64,000 nt of DNA from Escherichia phage BP32: the sequence record OR906198.1; one strand, 5' to 3'. Position numbers and translations under genes: made by a program. Under the pieces are notes generated by a model. The model was given only the letters and a program-made list of their open reading frames with translations, searched no databases and was not told the DNA's origin. Position 1 is the stretch's first letter. Each line of letters opens with the position of its first letter. Positions 29,289 through 37,778 of this stretch are shown here, in pieces.

Positions 29289-29903
29289 ATGTTTAAAGTT
29301 AATACTTTTTATAAAATGAATTTTAAAAATGGGGATATTACTCCACGCCTTAAAAACATGTTCTCATATGACCTTATCGAGCCTTTTGAAGTTTTAGAAG
29401 TTACTGATGCCGGCTCGGTTTGTGAAATTAGAACTTCTGAAGGTAAAATTTATCAGGCAGGTGTTGGTAAATTCAGTAATTGTTTTACTTTAATATTCTC
29501 GACCGATTTAGATGAGCATTTTATTGAATGTCCTAACCCTAAGGTCCACGAAGTTCCACATCAAGAAACTAAGAAAAATGGCCCGCACGAATATACGAAG
29601 GTTGAAACTCCTCACGGCGTGATGTGGCGTCATAACTCTCCTTTTGGAAGTAAAGGAACATTTGCTCAACCGTCTAAACCGTATGATGATGAAAAATACA
29701 TCGTCGTCTTTTTATCTGAACAGGGTACTCAAGACCGTGGATGCCAACGAAGTGGTTTACTAAGTGAACTTGAAGCTCATAACCAAGCACGTGAATTCGT
29801 TGAGAAAAATCCTGGTTCTGAAGCTCTAGTCATGAAAGCAATTACTCAATATATCACTGCTCAACCTGTTGTTCATCCGGTAGAAATTAATTTCGTTAAG
29901 TAG
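29289..29903 (+). CDS. Hypothetical protein (204 aa)
   Basis: ORF with GAGGAAA Shine-Dalgarno. Confidence 0.6.
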   Translation: MFKVNTFYKMNFKNGDITPRLKNMFSYDLIEPFEVLEVTDAGSVCEIRTSEGKIYQAGVGKFSNCFTLIFSTDLDEHFIECPNPKVHEVPHQETKKNGPHEYTKVETPHGVMWRHNSPFGSKGTFAQPSKPYDDEKYIVVFLSEQGTQDRGCQRSGLLSELEAHNQAREFVEKNPGSEALVMKAITQYITAQPVVHPVEINFVK

Positions 29904-29933
29904 TTTACATCCAAGGACGGATTAGAGTATAAT
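29904..29933 (+). promoter_or_regulatory. T4-early-like promoter (GTTTAC ... TATAAT)
   Basis: GTTTAC 29904-29909, TATAAT 29928-29933, 18 nt spacer. Confidence 0.5.
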
Positions 29934-30155: not shown

Positions 30156-30357
30156 ATTAATCCAGAAATTGTTAGGCACGGAAATGGTTGAAGTTACTTA
30201 TCGTGTGACTGACTGCTCGCCTATTCATCCACAGGATGAACCGTTTATCAAGACAATTAAAATGCTTAAAAATGACGGTGGTTTATCTATTGAAGACCGT
30301 CTGCCTAGTTACGGTCATTGGGCCGATGTTGAAATTATAAGTGTTAAAGATGTCTGA
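30145..30357 (+). CDS. Hypothetical protein (70 aa)
   Basis: Overlapping start/stop arrangement. Confidence 0.45.
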   Translation: MLNKLIQKLLGTEMVEVTYRVTDCSPIHPQDEPFIKTIKMLKNDGGLSIEDRLPSYGHWADVEIISVKDV

Positions 30358-30808
30358 ATTAGAAATAAGAAGCAATTTCAAATGGCCGTCATGTGCATTA
30401 AGTAACTTTGCTCAATGGCCTTTTGTTATGGATGGTATTCAATTCGGAGGTCTTGAAGGATTTCTCCAAGGATGTAAGGTGAAAAATGTTGAACAACAAA
30501 AACGTATATTTGGGTTGTCTGGATTGGCTGCACAGCAAGCCGGAAGGTCTTATGCAAGAGCTCAGGACCGTGGGACTCTCTTCTGGTTAGGAGTTCCATT
30601 TTCAAGATACTCTGAAGCGTGGAAAGAATTATACACAAATGCATATTTTGAAGCAGCGATCCAAAACAGGGGTTTTCGTGATGCATTACAAGCCTCGAAA
30701 GGAAAAGTTTTGAAGCACAGCATGGCTAGTGGTCTAACAAAAGATGATACAATACTAACCGAAGCTGAATTTATTGATGTGTTAAACCTATTAAGAGACT
30801 CTCTATGA
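30341..30808 (+). CDS. NADAR-like (YbiA/DUF1768-like) domain protein
   Basis: ALSNFAQWPFVMDGIQFGGLEGFLQGCK resembles the YbiA core DFSNFAAWPIKVDGKTWPTSEHYFQAQKF as I recall it. Confidence 0.55.
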   Translation: MLKMSELEIRSNFKWPSCALSNFAQWPFVMDGIQFGGLEGFLQGCKVKNVEQQKRIFGLSGLAAQQAGRSYARAQDRGTLFWLGVPFSRYSEAWKELYTNAYFEAAIQNRGFRDALQASKGKVLKHSMASGLTKDDTILTEAEFIDVLNLLRDSL

Positions 30809-31659
30809 AGCCAACTATTTTGACTGATATTGATGGAGTATGTTTAAGCTGGCAATCAGGCCTTCCTTATTTTGCTCAGAAATATAATCTTCCATTAGAA
30901 CATATTTTAAAAATGATCCAAGATGAGAAATTTATTTCTCCAGGTAAACTCTTTAATTGTGACGAAGAACTTGGCGTCAAGTTAATTGAAAAATACAATC
31001 GTTCAGATTTTATTCGTTACTTGTCTCCGTATAAAGATGCCCTGTGTGTAATTAACAAATTAAAAGAAGATTATAATTTTGTAGCTGTTACAGCATTGGG
31101 TGATTCTATTGATGCTCTATTAAATCGTCAATTTAATTTGAATGCTCTTTTTCCTGGTGCCTTTTCAGAAGTAATGATGTGTGGTCATGATTCTTCAAAA
31201 GAAGAGTTGTTCAAAAAGGCAAAAGAGAAATATAACGTAATTTGTTATATTGACGATCTCGCTCATCACTGCGATCATGCGAGTGAAATATTAAATGTTC
31301 CTGTTTATTGGATGGCTCGAGGAGAACGTGACAATATTCCAAAAACTGCTCAGCGAGTTTATACATGGAATGATGTAGAAAATAAGCTTTTTTCGCCGAA
31401 GGAAAATAAAGAAAGTTTTGATAGTGAAAAAGCTATAAAAGATTTAATTGAGAAGATGGTTAAAAACGATTCTTTTCCTTGGAACACTACCTGGAGAACG
31501 CCTGGATTAAATCCTTATAATCCATATTATCTATATTATCTATATCATCCATATCAGACACATCCGTTTCAGACATGGAACTATATTAAACCTGGTGGCA
31601 TAGAGTATTTGTATAATAGACCTACTAGTGGTGATAATATTTTTCAAGGAGCATTCTAA
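30805..31659 (+). CDS. HAD-superfamily phosphatase/nucleotidase-like protein with Tyr/Pro-rich C-terminal tail
   Basis: N-terminal ILTDIDGV (HAD motif I DxDG); C-terminal NPYNPYYLYYLYHPYQTHPFQ. Confidence 0.6.
   Translation: MKPTILTDIDGVCLSWQSGLPYFAQKYNLPLEHILKMIQDEKFISPGKLFNCDEELGVKLIEKYNRSDFIRYLSPYKDALCVINKLKEDYNFVAVTALGDSIDALLNRQFNLNALFPGAFSEVMMCGHDSSKEELFKKAKEKYNVICYIDDLAHHCDHASEILNVPVYWMARGERDNIPKTAQRVYTWNDVENKLFSPKENKESFDSEKAIKDLIEKMVKNDSFPWNTTWRTPGLNPYNPYYLYYLYHPYQTHPFQTWNYIKPGGIEYLYNRPTSGDNIFQGAF
31522..31557 (+). repeat. Four imperfect 9 bp tandem repeats inside the HAD-like gene
   Basis: ccatattat / ctatattat / ctatatcat / ccatatcag, encoding the YYLYYLYHPYQ tail. Confidence 0.6.
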
Positions 31660-31835
31660 TGTTTGTTGTTCATACTATTTATGAAAATGAAGGTAATACT
31701 ACACGTGATTACGGTCACGTAAATCAATTTTTTAGATGCAATCCAGAATTCCGTGCTCAAAAAGACGAACGAATTTTTAAAAAAATGTGTAGAACAAGGT
31801 TTCATTTACGTCAAGCACTGGATGCAAGGAAATAA
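31659..31835 (+). CDS. Small ORF (58 aa), below the ORF-track length cut-off
   Basis: ATG overlaps upstream TAA (TAATG); translation MFVVHTIYENEGNTTRDYGHVNQFFRCNPEFRAQKDERIFKKMCRTRFHLRQALDARK. Confidence 0.35.
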   Translation: MFVVHTIYENEGNTTRDYGHVNQFFRCNPEFRAQKDERIFKKMCRTRFHLRQALDARK

Positions 31836-31925
31836 AGTTAGAACTACATATCATAAGTCTTTGCCTGAGCTTAATGATGAATTGATTTATAATAGAGATG
31901 TAAATCAAACTCTGAAGGATGAACA

Positions 31926-33386
31926 ATGATTCTTAAAATTCTGAATGAAATAGCATCTATTGGATCAACTAAGCAGAAGCAAGCAATTCTTGAAAAGAAT
32001 AAAGATAATGAATTGCTTAAACGAGTATATCGTCTGACTTATTCTCGTGGGTTACAGTATTATATTAAGAAATGGCCTAAACCTGGTATTGCTACCCAGA
32101 GTTTTGGAATGCTGACCATTACCGATATGCTTGACTTCATTGAATTCACGTTAGCTACTCGGAAATTGACTGGAAATGCAGCAATTGAGGAATTAACTGG
32201 ATATATCACTGATGGTAAAAAGGATGATGTTGAAGTTTTGCGTCGAGTGATGATGCGAGACCTTGAATGCGGTGCTTCAGTATCTATTGCAAACAAAGTT
32301 TGGCCAGGTTTAATTCCTGAACAACCTCAAATGCTGGCAAGTTCTTATGATGAAAAAGGCATTAGTAAGAATATCAAGTTTCCAGCCTTTGCGCAATTAA
32401 AAGCAGATGGAGCTCGGTGTTTTGCTGAAGTCCGAGGCGATGAATTAGATGATGTTCGTCTTTTATCACGAGCTGGTAATGAATATCTAGGATTAGATCT
32501 TCTTAAGGAAGAGTTAATCAAAATGACTGCTGAAGCCCGCCAGATTCATCCAGAAGGTGTGTTAATTGATGGCGAATTGGTATACCATGAGCAAGTTGAA
32601 AAAGAGCCAGAAGGCCTAGATTTTCTTTTTGATGCTCCTGAAATCAGTAAAGCTAAAGAATTCGCCGAAGTAGCTGAATCACGTACTGCTTCTAATGGAA
32701 TCGCTAATAAATCTTTAAAGGGAACTATTTCAGAAAAAGAAGCTCAATGCATGAAGTTTCAGGTCTGGGATTATGTCCCGTTGGTAGAAATATACTGTCT
32801 TCCGGCGTTTCGTTTAAAATATGATGTACGTTTTTCTAAACTAGAACAAATGGCATCAGGATATGATAAAGTAATTTTAATTGAAAACCAGGTAGTAAAT
32901 AACCTAGATGAAGCTAAGGTAATTTATAAAAAGTATATTGACCAAGGTCTTGAAGGTATTATTCTCAAAAATACCGATGGATTGTGGGAAAATGCTCGTT
33001 CAAAAAATCTCTATAAATTTAAAGAAGTAATTGATGTTGATTTAAAAATTGTAGGAATTTATCCTCACCGTAAAGACCCTACTAAAGCAGGTGGATTTAT
33101 TCTTGAATCAGAGTGTGGAAAAATTAAAGTAAATGCAGGTTCAGGCTTAAAAGATAAAGCCGGTGTAAAATCACATGAACTTGACCGTACTCGCATTATG
33201 GAAAACCAAAATTATTATATTGGAAAAATTCTAGAGTGCGAATGCAACGGTTGGTTAAAATCTGATGGTCGCACTGATTACGTTAAATTATTTCTTCCAA
33301 TTGCGATTCGTTTACGTGAAGATAAAACTAAAGCTAATACATTCGAGGATGTATTTGGTGATTTTCATGAGGTAACTGGTCTATGA
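31926..33386 (+). CDS. 30: ATP-dependent DNA ligase gp30
   Basis: MILKILNEIASIGSTKQKQAILEKNKDNELLKRVYRLTYSRGLQYYIKKWPKPG matches T4 DNA ligase; 486 aa. Confidence 0.96.
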   Translation: MILKILNEIASIGSTKQKQAILEKNKDNELLKRVYRLTYSRGLQYYIKKWPKPGIATQSFGMLTITDMLDFIEFTLATRKLTGNAAIEELTGYITDGKKDDVEVLRRVMMRDLECGASVSIANKVWPGLIPEQPQMLASSYDEKGISKNIKFPAFAQLKADGARCFAEVRGDELDDVRLLSRAGNEYLGLDLLKEELIKMTAEARQIHPEGVLIDGELVYHEQVEKEPEGLDFLFDAPEISKAKEFAEVAESRTASNGIANKSLKGTISEKEAQCMKFQVWDYVPLVEIYCLPAFRLKYDVRFSKLEQMASGYDKVILIENQVVNNLDEAKVIYKKYIDQGLEGIILKNTDGLWENARSKNLYKFKEVIDVDLKIVGIYPHRKDPTKAGGFILESECGKIKVNAGSGLKDKAGVKSHELDRTRIMENQNYYIGKILECECNGWLKSDGRTDYVKLFLPIAIRLREDKTKANTFEDVFGDFHEVTGL

Positions 33387-33571
33387 AAGCTTACTTAGAA
33401 ACAATTGTCGTGGCTCAAAAAGAAGGTGGAGATGTTTCTACTTCTGTATCACAAGTCATTCTCGAATTTGTAGATGCATATGCTTATAATAAATTTACAG
33501 AAACATTTGATGCCTATGAAAAAGGACCAAAGTTTGAAATATATCGTACTCTCTTACCACTAGATTACTAA
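33383..33571 (+). CDS. Hypothetical protein (62 aa) overlapping ligase stop
   Basis: ATGA overlap with ligase. Confidence 0.45.
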   Translation: MKAYLETIVVAQKEGGDVSTSVSQVILEFVDAYAYNKFTETFDAYEKGPKFEIYRTLLPLDY

Positions 33572-33600
33572 AGGCCTTCGGGCCTTTAATTTTATAAATA
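33571..33600 (+). promoter_or_regulatory. Hairpin aaaggcc-ttcg-ggccttt followed by late promoter TATAAATA (33593-33600) upstream of alt
   Basis: Perfect stem plus exact late promoter motif about 25 bp before the alt ATG. Confidence 0.55.
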
Positions 33601-33623
33601 GAATAAACACTAGAGAGGATATG

Positions 33624-35717
33624 ATGGAACTCATTACAGAATTATTTGACGAAGATACTACTCTTCCGATTACAAACTTAAATCCAAAGAAGAAAATACC
33701 ACAAATTTTTTCAGTTCATGTCGATGACGCAATTGAACAACCAGGCTTTCGTTTATGTACCTATACATCTGGAGGTGATACTAATCGCGATTTAAAAATG
33801 GGCGATAAAATGATGCATATTGTTCCTTTTACATTAACTGCTAAAGGTTCAATTGCTAAATTAAAAGGTCTCGGTCCAAGCCCAATTAATTACATCAATT
33901 CAGTTTTTACTGTTGCAATGCAGACGATGCGCCAGTATAAAATTGATGCCTGCATGCTTCGTATTCTTAAGTCTAAAACTGCTGGTCAAGCTCGACAAAT
34001 TCAAGTTATTGCTGATAGACTTATCCGTAGTCGTTCAGGTGGCAGATACGTCCTTCTTAAGGAACTCTGGGATTATGATAAAAAGTATGCATATATTCTT
34101 ATACATCGCAAAAATGTATCACTAGAAGACATTCCAGGAGTTCCGGAAATTAGTACCGAGCTCTTTACTAAAGTTGAATCGAAGGTCGGCGATGTTTATA
34201 TCAATAAAGATACCGGAGCTCAAGTAACTAAAAATGAGGCAATTGCAGCATCTATTGCACAAGAAAATGATAAACGTTCTGACCAAGCTGTTATTGTTAA
34301 AGTTAAAATTTCCCGTAGAGCAATTGCACAAAGCCAGTCATTGGAATCTTCTAGATTTGAAAGCGAATTATTCCAGAAGTATGAATCTACTGCAGCTAAT
34401 TTCAATAAACCTGCTACAGCTCCTTTAATTCCCGAAGCAGAAGAAATGAAGCTTGGAATTAATTCATTAGCTTCTAAAACTAAGGCAGCAAAAATTATTG
34501 CCGAAGGAACCGCAGATGAACTTCACTATGACTATAAATTCTTTTCAAAAAGTGAGGTTAATGAAGTTTCTGAAAAAATTAAAGATGTAATTCTTAATGC
34601 GATTAAAAATGAACCAACTACTTCAATAAAATGTTTAGAGAAATACGCAGCAGCTGTTAATAAATTCTTTGAAGAATATAAAGATAATTGGCTTGATAAA
34701 CATAATAAAACCCGTAAAGGACAGCCAGATGAAGTCTGGGAAGAAATAACTAAAAATTCCTGGAACGCAGCAAAAACTAAATTCCTCAAACGAATGATTT
34801 ATAGCTTTTCTGGAATTGGTGCAGGTCCAATGATTGATATTACTATTGCCCGTGATGGTTCTAAATATACCCCATCGCAAAAGCGCGGCATTAGAGAGTA
34901 TTGTGGATCAGGATATACTGACATCAATAATCTTCTTTTAGGCCGCTACAATCCAGAACGATATGATGTAATGAGTGAAAAAGAAATTGAATCTGCGATA
35001 AATAATTTAGATTCAGCCTTTGAAAATGGTGACCGTATACCAGAAGGCATTACAGTTTATCGTGCTCAAAGTATGACTGCTCCTATATACGAAGCACTAG
35101 TTAAAAATAAAGTGTTCTATTTCAGAAATTTTGTATCTACTTCTTTAACTCCTATCATTTTTGGACGTTTTGGAATTACACATGCTGGTATCGGTCTTTT
35201 AGAACCAGAAGCTCGTAATGAATTAACAGTTGATAAAAATGAAGAAGGAATAACTATTAATCCAAACGAAATAAGAGCGTATAAAGAAAATCCTGAATAC
35301 GTTAAAGTTCAAATAGGATGGGCAATTGATGGAGCTCATAAAGTTAATGTTGTATATCCAGGAAGTCTCGGAATAGCAACTGAAGCTGAAGTTATTCTAC
35401 CGCGCGGATTGATGGTCAAAGTTAATAAAATAACTGATGCTTCTAATAATGACGGAACAACAACTAATAATACAAAACTCATTCAAGCTGAAGTTATGAC
35501 TACGGAAGAACTCACCGAATCAGTAATTTATGATGGTGACCGTCTAATGGAAACTGGTGAAGTAGTTGCAATGACAGGTGATATTGAAATAGAAGACAGA
35601 GTTGACTTTGCATCATTTGTTTCATCAAATGTTAAACAAAAAGTAGAATCATCTCTTGGAATTATTGCGTCTTGCATAGATATTACAAACATGCCTTACA
35701 AGTTCGTTCAAGGATAA
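33624..35717 (+). CDS. alt: Alt-family mono-ADP-ribosyltransferase, copy 1 (packaged internal head protein)
   Basis: MELITELFDEDTTLPITNLNPKKKIPQIFSVHVDD N-terminus matches T4 Alt; ART motifs VYRAQ, FVSTS, TEAEVILPRG. Confidence 0.9.
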   Translation: MELITELFDEDTTLPITNLNPKKKIPQIFSVHVDDAIEQPGFRLCTYTSGGDTNRDLKMGDKMMHIVPFTLTAKGSIAKLKGLGPSPINYINSVFTVAMQTMRQYKIDACMLRILKSKTAGQARQIQVIADRLIRSRSGGRYVLLKELWDYDKKYAYILIHRKNVSLEDIPGVPEISTELFTKVESKVGDVYINKDTGAQVTKNEAIAASIAQENDKRSDQAVIVKVKISRRAIAQSQSLESSRFESELFQKYESTAANFNKPATAPLIPEAEEMKLGINSLASKTKAAKIIAEGTADELHYDYKFFSKSEVNEVSEKIKDVILNAIKNEPTTSIKCLEKYAAAVNKFFEEYKDNWLDKHNKTRKGQPDEVWEEITKNSWNAAKTKFLKRMIYSFSGIGAGPMIDITIARDGSKYTPSQKRGIREYCGSGYTDINNLLLGRYNPERYDVMSEKEIESAINNLDSAFENGDRIPEGITVYRAQSMTAPIYEALVKNKVFYFRNFVSTSLTPIIFGRFGITHAGIGLLEPEARNELTVDKNEEGITINPNEIRAYKENPEYVKVQIGWAIDGAHKVNVVYPGSLGIATEAEVILPRGLMVKVNKITDASNNDGTTTNNTKLIQAEVMTTEELTESVIYDGDRLMETGEVVAMTGDIEIEDRVDFASFVSSNVKQKVESSLGIIASCIDITNMPYKFVQG

Positions 35718-35720
35718 ATC

Positions 35721-37778
35721 ATGGAACTTATTACAGAATTATTTGACGGCGCTTCGGCGCCGGTTGTTAACTTAAATCCTAAGCATAAAATACCTCAAAT
35801 TTTTGCTATTCAAGCCGGTGAAGAAAGCGTGCTTCCTGGATTTAGATTTTGTACATACACCTCTGGCGGTGATACAAATAAAAACGTTAAGCCAGGCGAT
35901 AAAATGATGCATATCGTAATGATAGGCGTTAATGAGAAACTATCATTAGTTAAACTTAAAAACTTGGGTGGAAATCCAATTGGTGTCATTAATGCGGTTT
36001 TTGATACTGCTCTTCAAACAATGAAGCAGTATAAAATTGACGCATGTCTATTCCGCGTACTAAAGAGTAAAACAAACGGTGCAGGTCGGCAAATGCAAGT
36101 TATTGCCGACCGTTTAGTACGTACTAAAGGAGCAGGTCGATATGTTCTTTTAAAAGAAATCTGGGACTATGATAAAAAATATGCATATATTATGGTTTAC
36201 CGTAAAAATGCCAATTTAGAAGACATTCCAGGTGTACCTCCTATTTCAACTGAGTTATTCACAAAAGTTGAATCAAAGGTTGGTGATGTTTATGTAGACG
36301 TTAAAACAGGTAATGCTGTTCCTAAAGCTGTCGCTGTTGCTGCTTCTATTGCTTTAGAAAATGATAAGCGCACGGATCAAGCTGTTATTCAGAAAACTAA
36401 AATTAGTCGTCGATTAGCAGCTCAAGCTCAATATTCTACTGTCGATGCTTCACTTCAGGGTGATAGCTTCGCTGCTAAGAAATATCAAGAGTTTGAATCT
36501 AAAGTTCCGGTATATAAAGCAGAAGGACCAATGAACTCTGGCGTTATTCAGGTTGGTTCAAACTTCAGCAAAGGAGCTATCGGTGGTATGAGAAGTGCTT
36601 CTCGTTTTAAATCTAGTGATTATGAACTCGAAAGCTTCCGAAATCATATTGCATTGGCTCATGCACGTTTACGTGATCCATCTATCAAGTTACAGAGCGA
36701 TATAACATATCAAGGTTCTCAAGAATATTTAAAGAATAAAGAATTTTTTGATTATAAAACTGATAAAATTTTAAGCGATCTTGCTGACATTAATATTTCT
36801 AATAGCTTTGATGTTATTAAGAAAATTGTCAATGATTTAGTTAAAGGTTCTAAAGCCACACCAGATGAAAAGGTAGCTATTGTTCAATTTGTCATGAATG
36901 GCGTTTATAAATTGATTAATGAGTCTGCTTCTCAAGCGTATGAATATGCAAGTACTGAAGTAACTCCAAAAGGATTAACTCAGGCTGAGTCTGATGTAAT
37001 TGAAGATTATTGTGCAGATTCATATGTTGAAATGAACTCGTTCCTTTTAGGTAAACCGGATTCTACCCGTGAAGAATATATGGAACGAGCTATTAAACAC
37101 ATCGAGACAATGGATTCTGCCTTTGCCAAAGGGTCAGTTCTTCCTCCAGGAACTACGCTTTACCGTGGCCAAGAAGTTACCTTTAAAACTTTACGTCATA
37201 ATATTGAAAATAAAATGTTCTATTTCAAGAACTTCGTATCCACATCACTTAAACCAAATATCTTCGGTGAGTATGGTAAAAACTATATGGCCCTAGATGA
37301 TTCCAGTGCAGTATTTTCTGGTGAAGGAGAAGGTTCAGTTGATGCTGAAGATTTAATGCATATGGGTAGTCATTCTGCATATGCTAATGAAGATGCTGAA
37401 ACTAGCGTGGGTATGGTAATTAAAGGAGCTGAGCGAATCAAAGTTATCGTTCCAGGTCATTTATCAGGATTTCCATCAGAAGCTGAAGTTATTTTACCGC
37501 GTGGAATTTTGCTGAAGATTAATAAAGTGAGTACGTACATGATGAAAGAAACTGCTTATAACAAGTATCTAATAGAAGGCACAATCGTTCCTCCTTCTGA
37601 ACAATTAGAAGAATCGGTATATGACGGCGACCATCTAATGGAAACTGGTGAAGTTCGTCCAATGGCTGGATTTAATCAATTCCTTGTAGAAGAATCAAAA
37701 GAAGAGGAAAACGAAGTTTCTCAAATCTTGGCTTCTTTGGTTAACATCAACGGAATGTCTAAAAAGTTCAAAATGTAG
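35721..37778 (+). CDS. Alt-family mono-ADP-ribosyltransferase, copy 2 (diverged paralog)
   Basis: MELITELFDGASAPVVNLNPKHKIPQIF N-terminus; ART motifs LYRGQ, FVSTS, SEAEVILPRG; central region diverged from copy 1. Confidence 0.85.
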   Translation: MELITELFDGASAPVVNLNPKHKIPQIFAIQAGEESVLPGFRFCTYTSGGDTNKNVKPGDKMMHIVMIGVNEKLSLVKLKNLGGNPIGVINAVFDTALQTMKQYKIDACLFRVLKSKTNGAGRQMQVIADRLVRTKGAGRYVLLKEIWDYDKKYAYIMVYRKNANLEDIPGVPPISTELFTKVESKVGDVYVDVKTGNAVPKAVAVAASIALENDKRTDQAVIQKTKISRRLAAQAQYSTVDASLQGDSFAAKKYQEFESKVPVYKAEGPMNSGVIQVGSNFSKGAIGGMRSASRFKSSDYELESFRNHIALAHARLRDPSIKLQSDITYQGSQEYLKNKEFFDYKTDKILSDLADINISNSFDVIKKIVNDLVKGSKATPDEKVAIVQFVMNGVYKLINESASQAYEYASTEVTPKGLTQAESDVIEDYCADSYVEMNSFLLGKPDSTREEYMERAIKHIETMDSAFAKGSVLPPGTTLYRGQEVTFKTLRHNIENKMFYFKNFVSTSLKPNIFGEYGKNYMALDDSSAVFSGEGEGSVDAEDLMHMGSHSAYANEDAETSVGMVIKGAERIKVIVPGHLSGFPSEAEVILPRGILLKINKVSTYMMKETAYNKYLIEGTIVPPSEQLEESVYDGDHLMETGEVRPMAGFNQFLVEESKEEENEVSQILASLVNINGMSKKFKM

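What the first reader, a model, noticed from the sequence alone, without database searches (positions are those of the whole stretch)
30341..30808. NADAR-like (YbiA-type) domain protein encoded about 3 kb upstream of the Alt ADP-ribosyltransferases
The 155 aa product carries ALSNFAQWPFVMDGIQFGGLEGFLQGCK, which resembles the YbiA/NADAR core as I remember it. NADAR domains have been linked to NAD/ADP-ribose metabolism and to removal of ADP-ribose from guanine bases. In a genome that packages ADP-ribosyltransferases, this could be a phage-encoded reverser or counter-defence hydrolase (for example against DarT-like DNA ADP-ribosylation).
Basis: partly seen in the sequence, partly recalled or inferred. 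Interest (0 to 1): 0.5.

Follow-up and report, generated by a model that had tools for sequence, protein, structure and literature searches.

The report
T4 AdfN: known anti-DarT NADAR hydrolase

Summary
The ORF is real. It most likely starts at the ATG at 30350 (152 aa) rather than the GTG at 30341. The window comes from a T4-like (Tequatrovirus) phage, and the protein is 147/152 identical to T4 gp30.3.

It matches Pfam PF08010 (Phage_30_3) at E = 7e-69. It does not match the NADAR model PF08719 directly, but my own tests still place it in the NADAR superfamily:
- A family profile aligns to E. coli YbiA with 94.8% probability.
- 20 of 147 family representatives also hit PF08719.

The phage-specific H123 and the C-terminal helix that RB69 lacks are both present.

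Published work (Schuller 2023; Toxins 2024; Johannesman 2025; HIDEN-SEQ 2025) shows that T4 gp30.3/AdfN removes guanine-linked ADP-ribose from DNA, and that it is necessary and sufficient for T-even phages to escape DarTG1.

The proposed link to Alt is not supported, and "YbiA-type" is the wrong subfamily. Verdict: correct interpretation, already known, low interest.

The parts
30350..30808 (+). adfN / gene 30.3 coding sequence (152 aa plus stop).
   Evidence: 147/152 identical to T4 gp30.3 over its full length. PF08010 E = 6.8e-69. Homologues start at MSELEIR.
30395..30478 (+). It is the NADAR N-terminal core and holds the LSN motif, the catalytic Glu and the catalytic Lys.
   Evidence: This is the only stretch that aligns to YbiA at plain profile-to-sequence level. 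L17, S18, N19, F25, E36, G37, L39, Q40 and K43 are conserved in at least 90% of 147 family representatives.
30455..30457 (+). Codon GAA = Glu36. This is the catalytic Glu, equivalent to PnNADAR E43 and E. coli C7 DarG1 E88.
   Evidence: It is the only invariant column in 147 representatives. It aligns with the Glu of YbiA SEHYFQAQK. E36A weakens the T4 protein in vivo and inactivates it in vitro (PMC11825919).
30476..30478 (+). Codon AAG = Lys43. This is the phosphate-coordinating Lys, equivalent to PnNADAR K50 and DarG1 K95.
   Evidence: Lys in 155 of 166 aligned sequences and Arg in 6. It sits 7 residues after the Glu, as in the solved NADARs. K43A reduces rescue.
30716..30718 (+). Codon CAC = His123 in the last strand. 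It is the hallmark of the phage NADAR subfamily, replacing Glu of YbiA-type and Asp of DarG1-type proteins.
   Evidence: His in 161 of 164 aligned sequences. It lies in predicted strand E120-123. hhalign places it in the YbiA 'VEHTE' segment. The literature describes this His replacement.
30761..30805 (+). C-terminal alpha-helix (residues 138-152). It is intact here and is lost in the frameshifted, DarTG1-sensitive RB69 allele.
   Evidence: The model shows helix H138-151. The sequence TEAEFIDVLNLLRDSL is identical to T4. The RB69 truncation and its reduced activity are described in PMC11825919.
30805..31659 (+). Gene 30.2, the downstream neighbour, whose start overlaps the adfN stop (ATGA). 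It encodes an HAD-superfamily hydrolase with a disordered Tyr/Pro-rich tail. It is context only and is not shown to be part of the mechanism.
   Evidence: HAD motifs D8xD10, T96, K132 and D150-D151 are conserved (all but T96 invariant) in 25 homologues. The model core has pLDDT above 90, and the best PDB match is a 5'(3')-deoxyribonucleotidase. It is adjacent to 30.3 only in T4-like loci.
29904..29933 (+). Sigma-70-like promoter consensus (TTTACA-18-TATAAT) ahead of genes 30.5-30.4-30.3-30.2-30.1-30.
   Evidence: It matches 11 of 12 consensus positions. This is a consensus match only; the number of such sites in the region is not above the shuffled expectation.
33569..33588 (+). Terminator-like hairpin between alt.1 and the first alt gene. 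It separates the adfN/ligase block from Alt.
   Evidence: an 8-bp stem with a TTCG loop followed by a T-rich tail.

Best explanation
The gene is the ortholog of T4 30.3, renamed adfN (anti-DarT factor NADAR). It encodes a minimal, core-only NADAR-fold ADP-ribosylglycohydrolase. When the host DarT1 toxin ADP-ribosylates guanines in the infecting phage DNA, AdfN hydrolyses the N-glycosidic bond between the guanine base and ADP-ribose. This restores unmodified DNA, so replication proceeds and the phage escapes DarTG1. Catalysis uses Glu36 (ribose contacts), Lys43 (phosphate coordination) and the subfamily-specific His123 in the last strand. The C-terminal helix is needed for full activity. Shown here: orthology, fold, conserved residues and an intact reading frame. 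Taken from published experiments on the T4 protein: enzymatic activity, guanine specificity, and necessity and sufficiency against DarTG1. Inferred: that this 97%-identical allele behaves the same way.
Against: No experiment exists on this exact allele. The window protein gives no direct hit to the NADAR Pfam model, and NCBIfam has no model for it. The T4 protein cannot rescue uninfected E. coli from DarT1 and barely helps non-T-even phages, so something beyond simple hydrolysis, possibly an unknown phage cofactor, is involved. My placement of His123 opposite the YbiA Glu is off by one column in hhalign, and the equivalence otherwise rests on the literature.
Confidence: 0.93

Rival explanations
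1. The protein reverses the phage's own protein ADP-ribosylation: Alt, ModA or ModB marks on RNA polymerase and other host proteins. On this reading it is the eraser paired with the nearby Alt writers.
For: It lies 2.8 kb upstream of two Alt genes on the same strand. A bioinformatic survey noted that T4-like NADAR genes are early genes expressed along with the ADP-ribosyltransferases (PMC9503650).
Against: Every substrate demonstrated for NADARs in the papers read is a base-linked ADP-ribose on nucleic acid: guanine, and cytidine for some families. The adfN deletion phenotype is specific to DarTG1. The gene is dispensable on E. coli K-12. A terminator-like hairpin separates the block from alt. 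The 30.3 family is found in many phage loci whose layout differs from T4, though I did not check those loci for Alt genes. I found no test on arginine-ADPr protein, so this is untested rather than disproved.
Confidence: 0.04
2. The protein mainly degrades small soluble molecules rather than DNA adducts. Candidates are ADP-ribose-derived immune signals, RNA-repair by-products, or riboflavin-pathway intermediates as for YbiA.
For: This was the prediction of the 2022 comparative-genomics survey for phage NADARs (PMC9503650). Family members are fused to KptA/Tpt1 RNA 2'-phosphotransferase, NT5C nucleotidase and HD domains. The neighbouring gp30.2 is a nucleotidase-like HAD hydrolase. AdfN does not protect uninfected cells from DarT1.
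Against: Direct in vitro removal of ADP-ribose from DNA and a catalysis-dependent DarTG1 phenotype already explain why the gene is kept. The YbiA-defining Glu is replaced by His. This could be an additional activity but is unlikely to be the main one.
Confidence: 0.06
3. This particular allele is inactive, a decaying copy like the one in RB69, so the phage would be DarTG1-sensitive.
For: Natural loss-of-function alleles exist: RB69 has a frameshift, and several truncated or fused gene calls appear in the databases. The neighbouring gene 30.1 is frameshifted in this window.
Against: The reading frame is intact over all 152 codons, the C-terminal helix is identical to T4, and all conserved and catalytic residues are present. 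The five substitutions fall at variable positions.
Confidence: 0.03

Closest known systems
T4 gp30.3 = AdfN (anti-DarT factor NADAR), Pfam PF08010 Phage_30_3
   Same: 97% identical over the full 152 aa, with the same neighbours and gene order. It has the same E36/K43/H123 residues and the same C-terminal helix.
   Different: Five conservative or surface-type substitutions (R11K, R51K, P89E, K107R, I125M; T4 residue first). The T4-annotated internal out-of-frame ORF 30.3' is interrupted by a stop here.
DarG1, the NADAR antitoxin of the DarTG1 toxin-antitoxin system (for example E. coli C7 and Geobacter lovleyi, PDB 8bat)
   Different: This gene has no adjacent DarT1 toxin gene (it is an orphan). 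It lacks the N-terminal extension, and it has His instead of Asp in the last strand. The T4 protein cannot substitute for DarG1 in uninfected cells.
E. coli YbiA and the YbiA-type NADARs (PF08719; PDB 2b3w)
   Different: Identity is only about 18-22%. The window protein does not reach PF08719. The subfamily-defining Glu is His here. YbiA has housekeeping or riboflavin-related roles and a LexA-controlled operon context.
AdfN(Bas32) and AdfN(Bas60), NADARs of T5-like and Vequintavirinae phages
   Same: They are phage-encoded orphan NADARs that counter DarTG1 and are specific for guanine adducts.
   Different: They belong to other NADAR clades and were acquired independently. They work in uninfected cells and for unrelated phages, whereas the T4-type protein is fully active only during T-even infection.

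Membership tests
NADAR superfamily (YbiA fold) | An alpha+beta fold with a five-helix core flanked by two small beta-hairpins, structurally similar to solved NADARs. | tested here: met
NADAR superfamily (YbiA fold) | A significant profile-level sequence relation to PF08719/YbiA. | tested here: met
   The direct hmmscan of the window protein finds no PF08719 hit even at E <= 1. However, the family profile against YbiA by hhalign gives 94.8% probability and E = 5.5e-8 over 134 columns. The profile search of the PDB finds only YbiA, at E = 0.001-0.006. 20 of 147 family representatives also hit PF08719, best E = 1.2e-6.
NADAR superfamily (YbiA fold) | A catalytic Glu, and a Lys seven residues later, in the first helix (PnNADAR E43/K50; DarG1 E88/K95). 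| tested here: met
   E36 and K43 are present. E36 is invariant and K43 is conserved in at least 90% of 147 representatives. They align with the Glu and Lys of YbiA.
YbiA-type NADAR subfamily | A conserved glutamate in the last strand (PnNADAR E125). | tested here: not met
   The position is His123, which is His in 161 of 164 aligned family sequences. The literature states that phage NADARs carry His here.
Phage NADAR / gp30.3 / AdfN(T4) family (PF08010) | A match to PF08010 above the gathering score, with His in the last strand. | tested here: met
   230.5 bits against a cut-off of 36. H123 is present.
Phage NADAR / gp30.3 / AdfN(T4) family (PF08010) | Orthology to T4 30.3: full-length identity and conserved synteny. 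| tested here: met
   147/152 identical with no gaps. The gene is flanked by 30.4 and 30.2 with the same overlapping start and stop codons as in T4.
Phage NADAR / gp30.3 / AdfN(T4) family (PF08010) | An intact C-terminal helix, which is required for full activity and is lost in RB69. | tested here: met
   Residues 138-152 are identical to T4 and are predicted to be helical.
Phage NADAR / gp30.3 / AdfN(T4) family (PF08010) | Guanine-ADPr DNA glycohydrolase activity and protection from DarTG1. | not testable with these tools
   Shown experimentally for the T4 and T2 proteins only.
DarG1 antitoxin (DarT1-associated, BC4488-type NADAR) | Encoded next to a DarT1 toxin gene. | tested here: not met
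   The neighbours are 30.5, 30.4, 30.2, 30.1 and DNA ligase. The four flanking products scanned (the 204-aa ORF, 30.5, 30.4 and 30.2) give no Pfam hit of any kind.
DarG1 antitoxin (DarT1-associated, BC4488-type NADAR) | An N-terminal extension before the core, and Asp in the last strand. | tested here: not met
   The protein is the 152-aa core only, and the family motif begins at residue 4. His123 stands in place of Asp.

The most novel reading that the evidence does not exclude
The downstream gene 30.2 may be functionally tied to AdfN. It is an uncharacterised HAD hydrolase resembling 5'(3')-deoxyribonucleotidases, and its start codon overlaps the adfN stop. It could be the still-unidentified T-even factor that AdfN(T4) needs for full activity, or it could process the released ADP-ribose or nucleotide product. 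Rare natural fusions of a gp30.3-type NADAR to an NT5C nucleotidase domain would then be a Rosetta-stone hint.
Probability: 0.08. Interest if true: 0.5.

Novelty: already known. Interest (0 to 1): 0.12.

Why it matters
The function is established, so the window adds no new biology. What it does show is that this phage carries an apparently intact anti-DarTG1 gene, which predicts that the phage resists DarTG1-bearing hosts. That is useful for annotation, because most database records still call the gene a hypothetical protein. It is also useful for choosing or engineering therapeutic phages. The one open question touching this locus is why T4-type AdfN works fully only during T-even infection.

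Tried and rejected
- **Direct Pfam and NCBIfam scans for NADAR.** Only PF08010 was found, with no PF08719 hit and no NCBIfam model. Superfamily membership therefore had to be shown by fold and profile comparison.
- **Profile searches of PDB sequences.** Both the 8-sequence and the 147-sequence profile reached only the N-terminal half of YbiA. They did not reach 8bau or 8bat, so I could not get my own residue-level alignment of His123 to the DarG1 Asp.
- **gp30.2 as a partner of AdfN.**
  - phmmer and hmmsearch of gp30.2 against 166 family members, including the fusions, found nothing significant.
  - hhalign of the gp30.2 profile against the NT5C-fused member P0093 gave only 47% probability over the first 68 columns.
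  - 30.2 lies near 30.3 in only 23 of 81 loci, all of them T4-like.
  - The transposon study names only adfN as conditionally essential on DarTG1; I could not see its figures.
  - I therefore treat the link as weak.
- **An apparent C-terminal truncation in locus L006.** This was a tblastn trimming artefact; the ORF there is full length.
- **The T4-annotated overlapping ORF 30.3'.** It is broken by a stop codon here, so it is not a conserved feature.
- **Promoter scan.** The number of promoter-like sites is not above the shuffled expectation (24 against 21 ± 4.5), so the site at 29904 is only suggestive.

Full report
**Observation.** The ORF reported at 30341..30808 on the + strand exists and contains the quoted peptide.
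- The GTG at 30341 is only the first possible start codon. T4 and all full-length homologues begin MSELEIR, which is the ATG at 30350.
- That start gives a 152-aa product whose first codons overlap the stop of upstream gene 30.4 by 8 nt, exactly as annotated in T4.
- The stop codon overlaps the ATG of the next gene (ATGA at 30805..30808).
- The window is a T4-like phage. The gene is 97% identical in DNA to several Tequatrovirus records, and 676 phage records match it, 674 of them over at least 80% of its length.
- The first Alt gene starts 2.8 kb downstream.

**Identity.** The protein matches Pfam PF08010 (Phage_30_3) at E = 6.8e-69, 230 bits against a cut-off of 36.
- It is 147/152 identical, with no gaps, to T4 gp30.3 taken from NC_000866.
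- The gene order 30.7, 30.5, 30.4, 30.3, 30.2, 30.1, 30 (DNA ligase), alt.1, alt is the T4 order.

Four independent tests still place it in the superfamily:
2. **Profile comparison.** A profile of 147 family representatives aligned to the single E. coli YbiA sequence by hhalign gives 94.8% probability and E = 5.5e-8 over 134 columns.
3. **PDB sequence search.** HMM searches of PDB sequences with the family profile find YbiA and nothing else credible, at E = 0.006 and 0.001.
4. **Cross-hits to the NADAR model.** A search of 1.84 billion representatives found 1370 family members. Of the top 147, all hit PF08010 and 20 also hit PF08719, with a best E of 1.2e-6.

**Catalytic residues.**
- Glu36 (codon 30455..30457) is the only invariant column across 147 representatives. 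Lys43 (30476..30478) is conserved in at least 90%.
- The 7-residue spacing matches PnNADAR E43/K50 and E. coli C7 DarG1 E88/K95. hhalign puts these residues on the Glu and Lys of YbiA SEHYFQAQK.
- His123 (30716..30718) lies in the last predicted strand and is His in 161 of 164 aligned sequences. Published analyses say phage NADARs carry His where YbiA-type proteins have Glu and DarG1-type proteins have Asp.
- The protein is therefore a NADAR of the phage/gp30.3 subfamily. It is not YbiA-type.

**What it does.** This is already published.
- Phage NADARs were recognised as a His-bearing subfamily in Schuller et al. 2023 and the bioinformatic work it cites (PMC11543638), and Johannesman et al. 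credit an earlier bioinformatic study with identifying T4 30.3 as a NADAR.
- In Toxins 2024 (PMC11125620), the purified T4 protein removed ADP-ribose from guanine but not from thymidine in DNA. It did not rescue uninfected E. coli from DarT1.
- Johannesman et al. 2025 (PMC11825919) mapped DarTG1 resistance of T2 and T4 to gene 30.3 and renamed it adfN.
  - Deleting it makes T4 and T2 unable to plate on DarTG1 hosts.
  - Expressing it rescues RB69, whose own allele is frameshifted and lacks the last 15 residues.
  - E36A and K43A weaken it.
  - The purified protein, but not E36A, removes ADP-ribose from DarT1-modified DNA.
- A transposon screen of T4 found insertions in 30.3 lost specifically on DarTG1 hosts (10.1101/2025.11.20.689424).
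- Toxins 2026 again included the T4 enzyme among the NADARs that hydrolyse G-ADPr (PMC12945103).

**This allele.** The reading frame is complete, and the C-terminal helix (residues 138-152) is identical to T4. The five differences from T4 (positions 11, 51, 89, 107, 125) fall outside the conserved columns. I infer that the protein is active and that this phage resists DarTG1. This is an inference, not a test.

**The Alt connection.**
- The position upstream of alt is simply T4 synteny.
- A terminator-like hairpin at 33569..33588 lies between alt.1 and alt, and a promoter-like site at 29904..29933 precedes 30.5. This suggests adfN is transcribed with the ligase block and not with alt. These are consensus matches only.
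- All NADAR substrates in the papers I read are base-linked ADP-ribose on nucleic acids. I found no test on Arg-ADPr proteins, so reversal of Alt marks is unsupported but not formally excluded.

**Open question and side results.**
- AdfN(T4) is fully active only during T-even infection, and the authors propose an unknown phage factor.
- The overlapping downstream gene 30.2 has no Pfam or NCBIfam hit. It does have the conserved HAD motifs D8xD10, T96, K132 and D150-D151. Its core is modelled confidently, and the best PDB match is cytosolic 5'(3')-deoxyribonucleotidase.
- Two of the 147 gp30.3-type representatives are fused to an NT5C nucleotidase domain and one to KptA/Tpt1.
- The evidence for a functional link between 30.2 and AdfN is weak:
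  - hhalign of gp30.2 against the fused NT5C domain gives only 47% probability.
  - 30.2 accompanies 30.3 in only 23 of 81 loci, all T4-like.
  - The transposon study names only adfN for DarTG1.

**Verdict.** Novelty: already known. Interest is low.

Noticed in passing
window 31659..31929: Gene 30.1 (DUF3045 in T4, 89 aa) is split into two overlapping 58-aa ORFs by one extra A in a homopolymer run (A7 here, A6 in T4). This is either a real frameshifted pseudogene or a homopolymer sequencing error.
   Followed up: partly
window 30486..30713: The out-of-frame internal ORF 30.3' annotated in T4 (75 aa) has a stop after 34 codons in this phage. It is therefore not conserved and is probably not a real gene.
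   Followed up: yes
window 30805..31659: gp30.2 is an unannotated HAD-superfamily hydrolase. The motifs DxD, T, K and DD are conserved in 25 homologues. The fold is closest to 5'(3')-deoxyribonucleotidases. It has a roughly 60-residue disordered Tyr/Pro-rich C-terminal tail that varies widely between phages. Its start overlaps the adfN stop.
   Followed up: partly
window 33621..35717 and 35721..37778: There are two full-length Alt ADP-ribosyltransferase paralogues in tandem (698 and 685 aa). T4 has one alt gene plus the short remnants alt.-1 and alt.-2 of an old duplication.
   Followed up: no
window 29289..29903: A 204-aa ORF with no Pfam hit sits where T4 has the 95-aa gene 30.6, so the two phages may differ in gene content at this position. 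I did not compare the two proteins.
   Followed up: no
proteins P0159, P0093 and others: gp30.3-type NADAR domains occur fused to a KptA/Tpt1 RNA 2'-phosphotransferase (P0159), an NT5C nucleotidase (P0093 and one other), ASCH, DUF6939, HD and BspA-type LRR domains. Some proteins carry two NADAR-matching stretches (for example P0022, P0024 and P0028).
   Followed up: partly
phage database records H1-H15: All of the top-listed GenBank records either label this gene 'hypothetical protein' or a size-based equivalent, or carry no annotation at all. One of them carries a neighbouring 'RNA repair pathway DNA polymerase beta' label. The published AdfN name has not reached the annotations.
   Followed up: no
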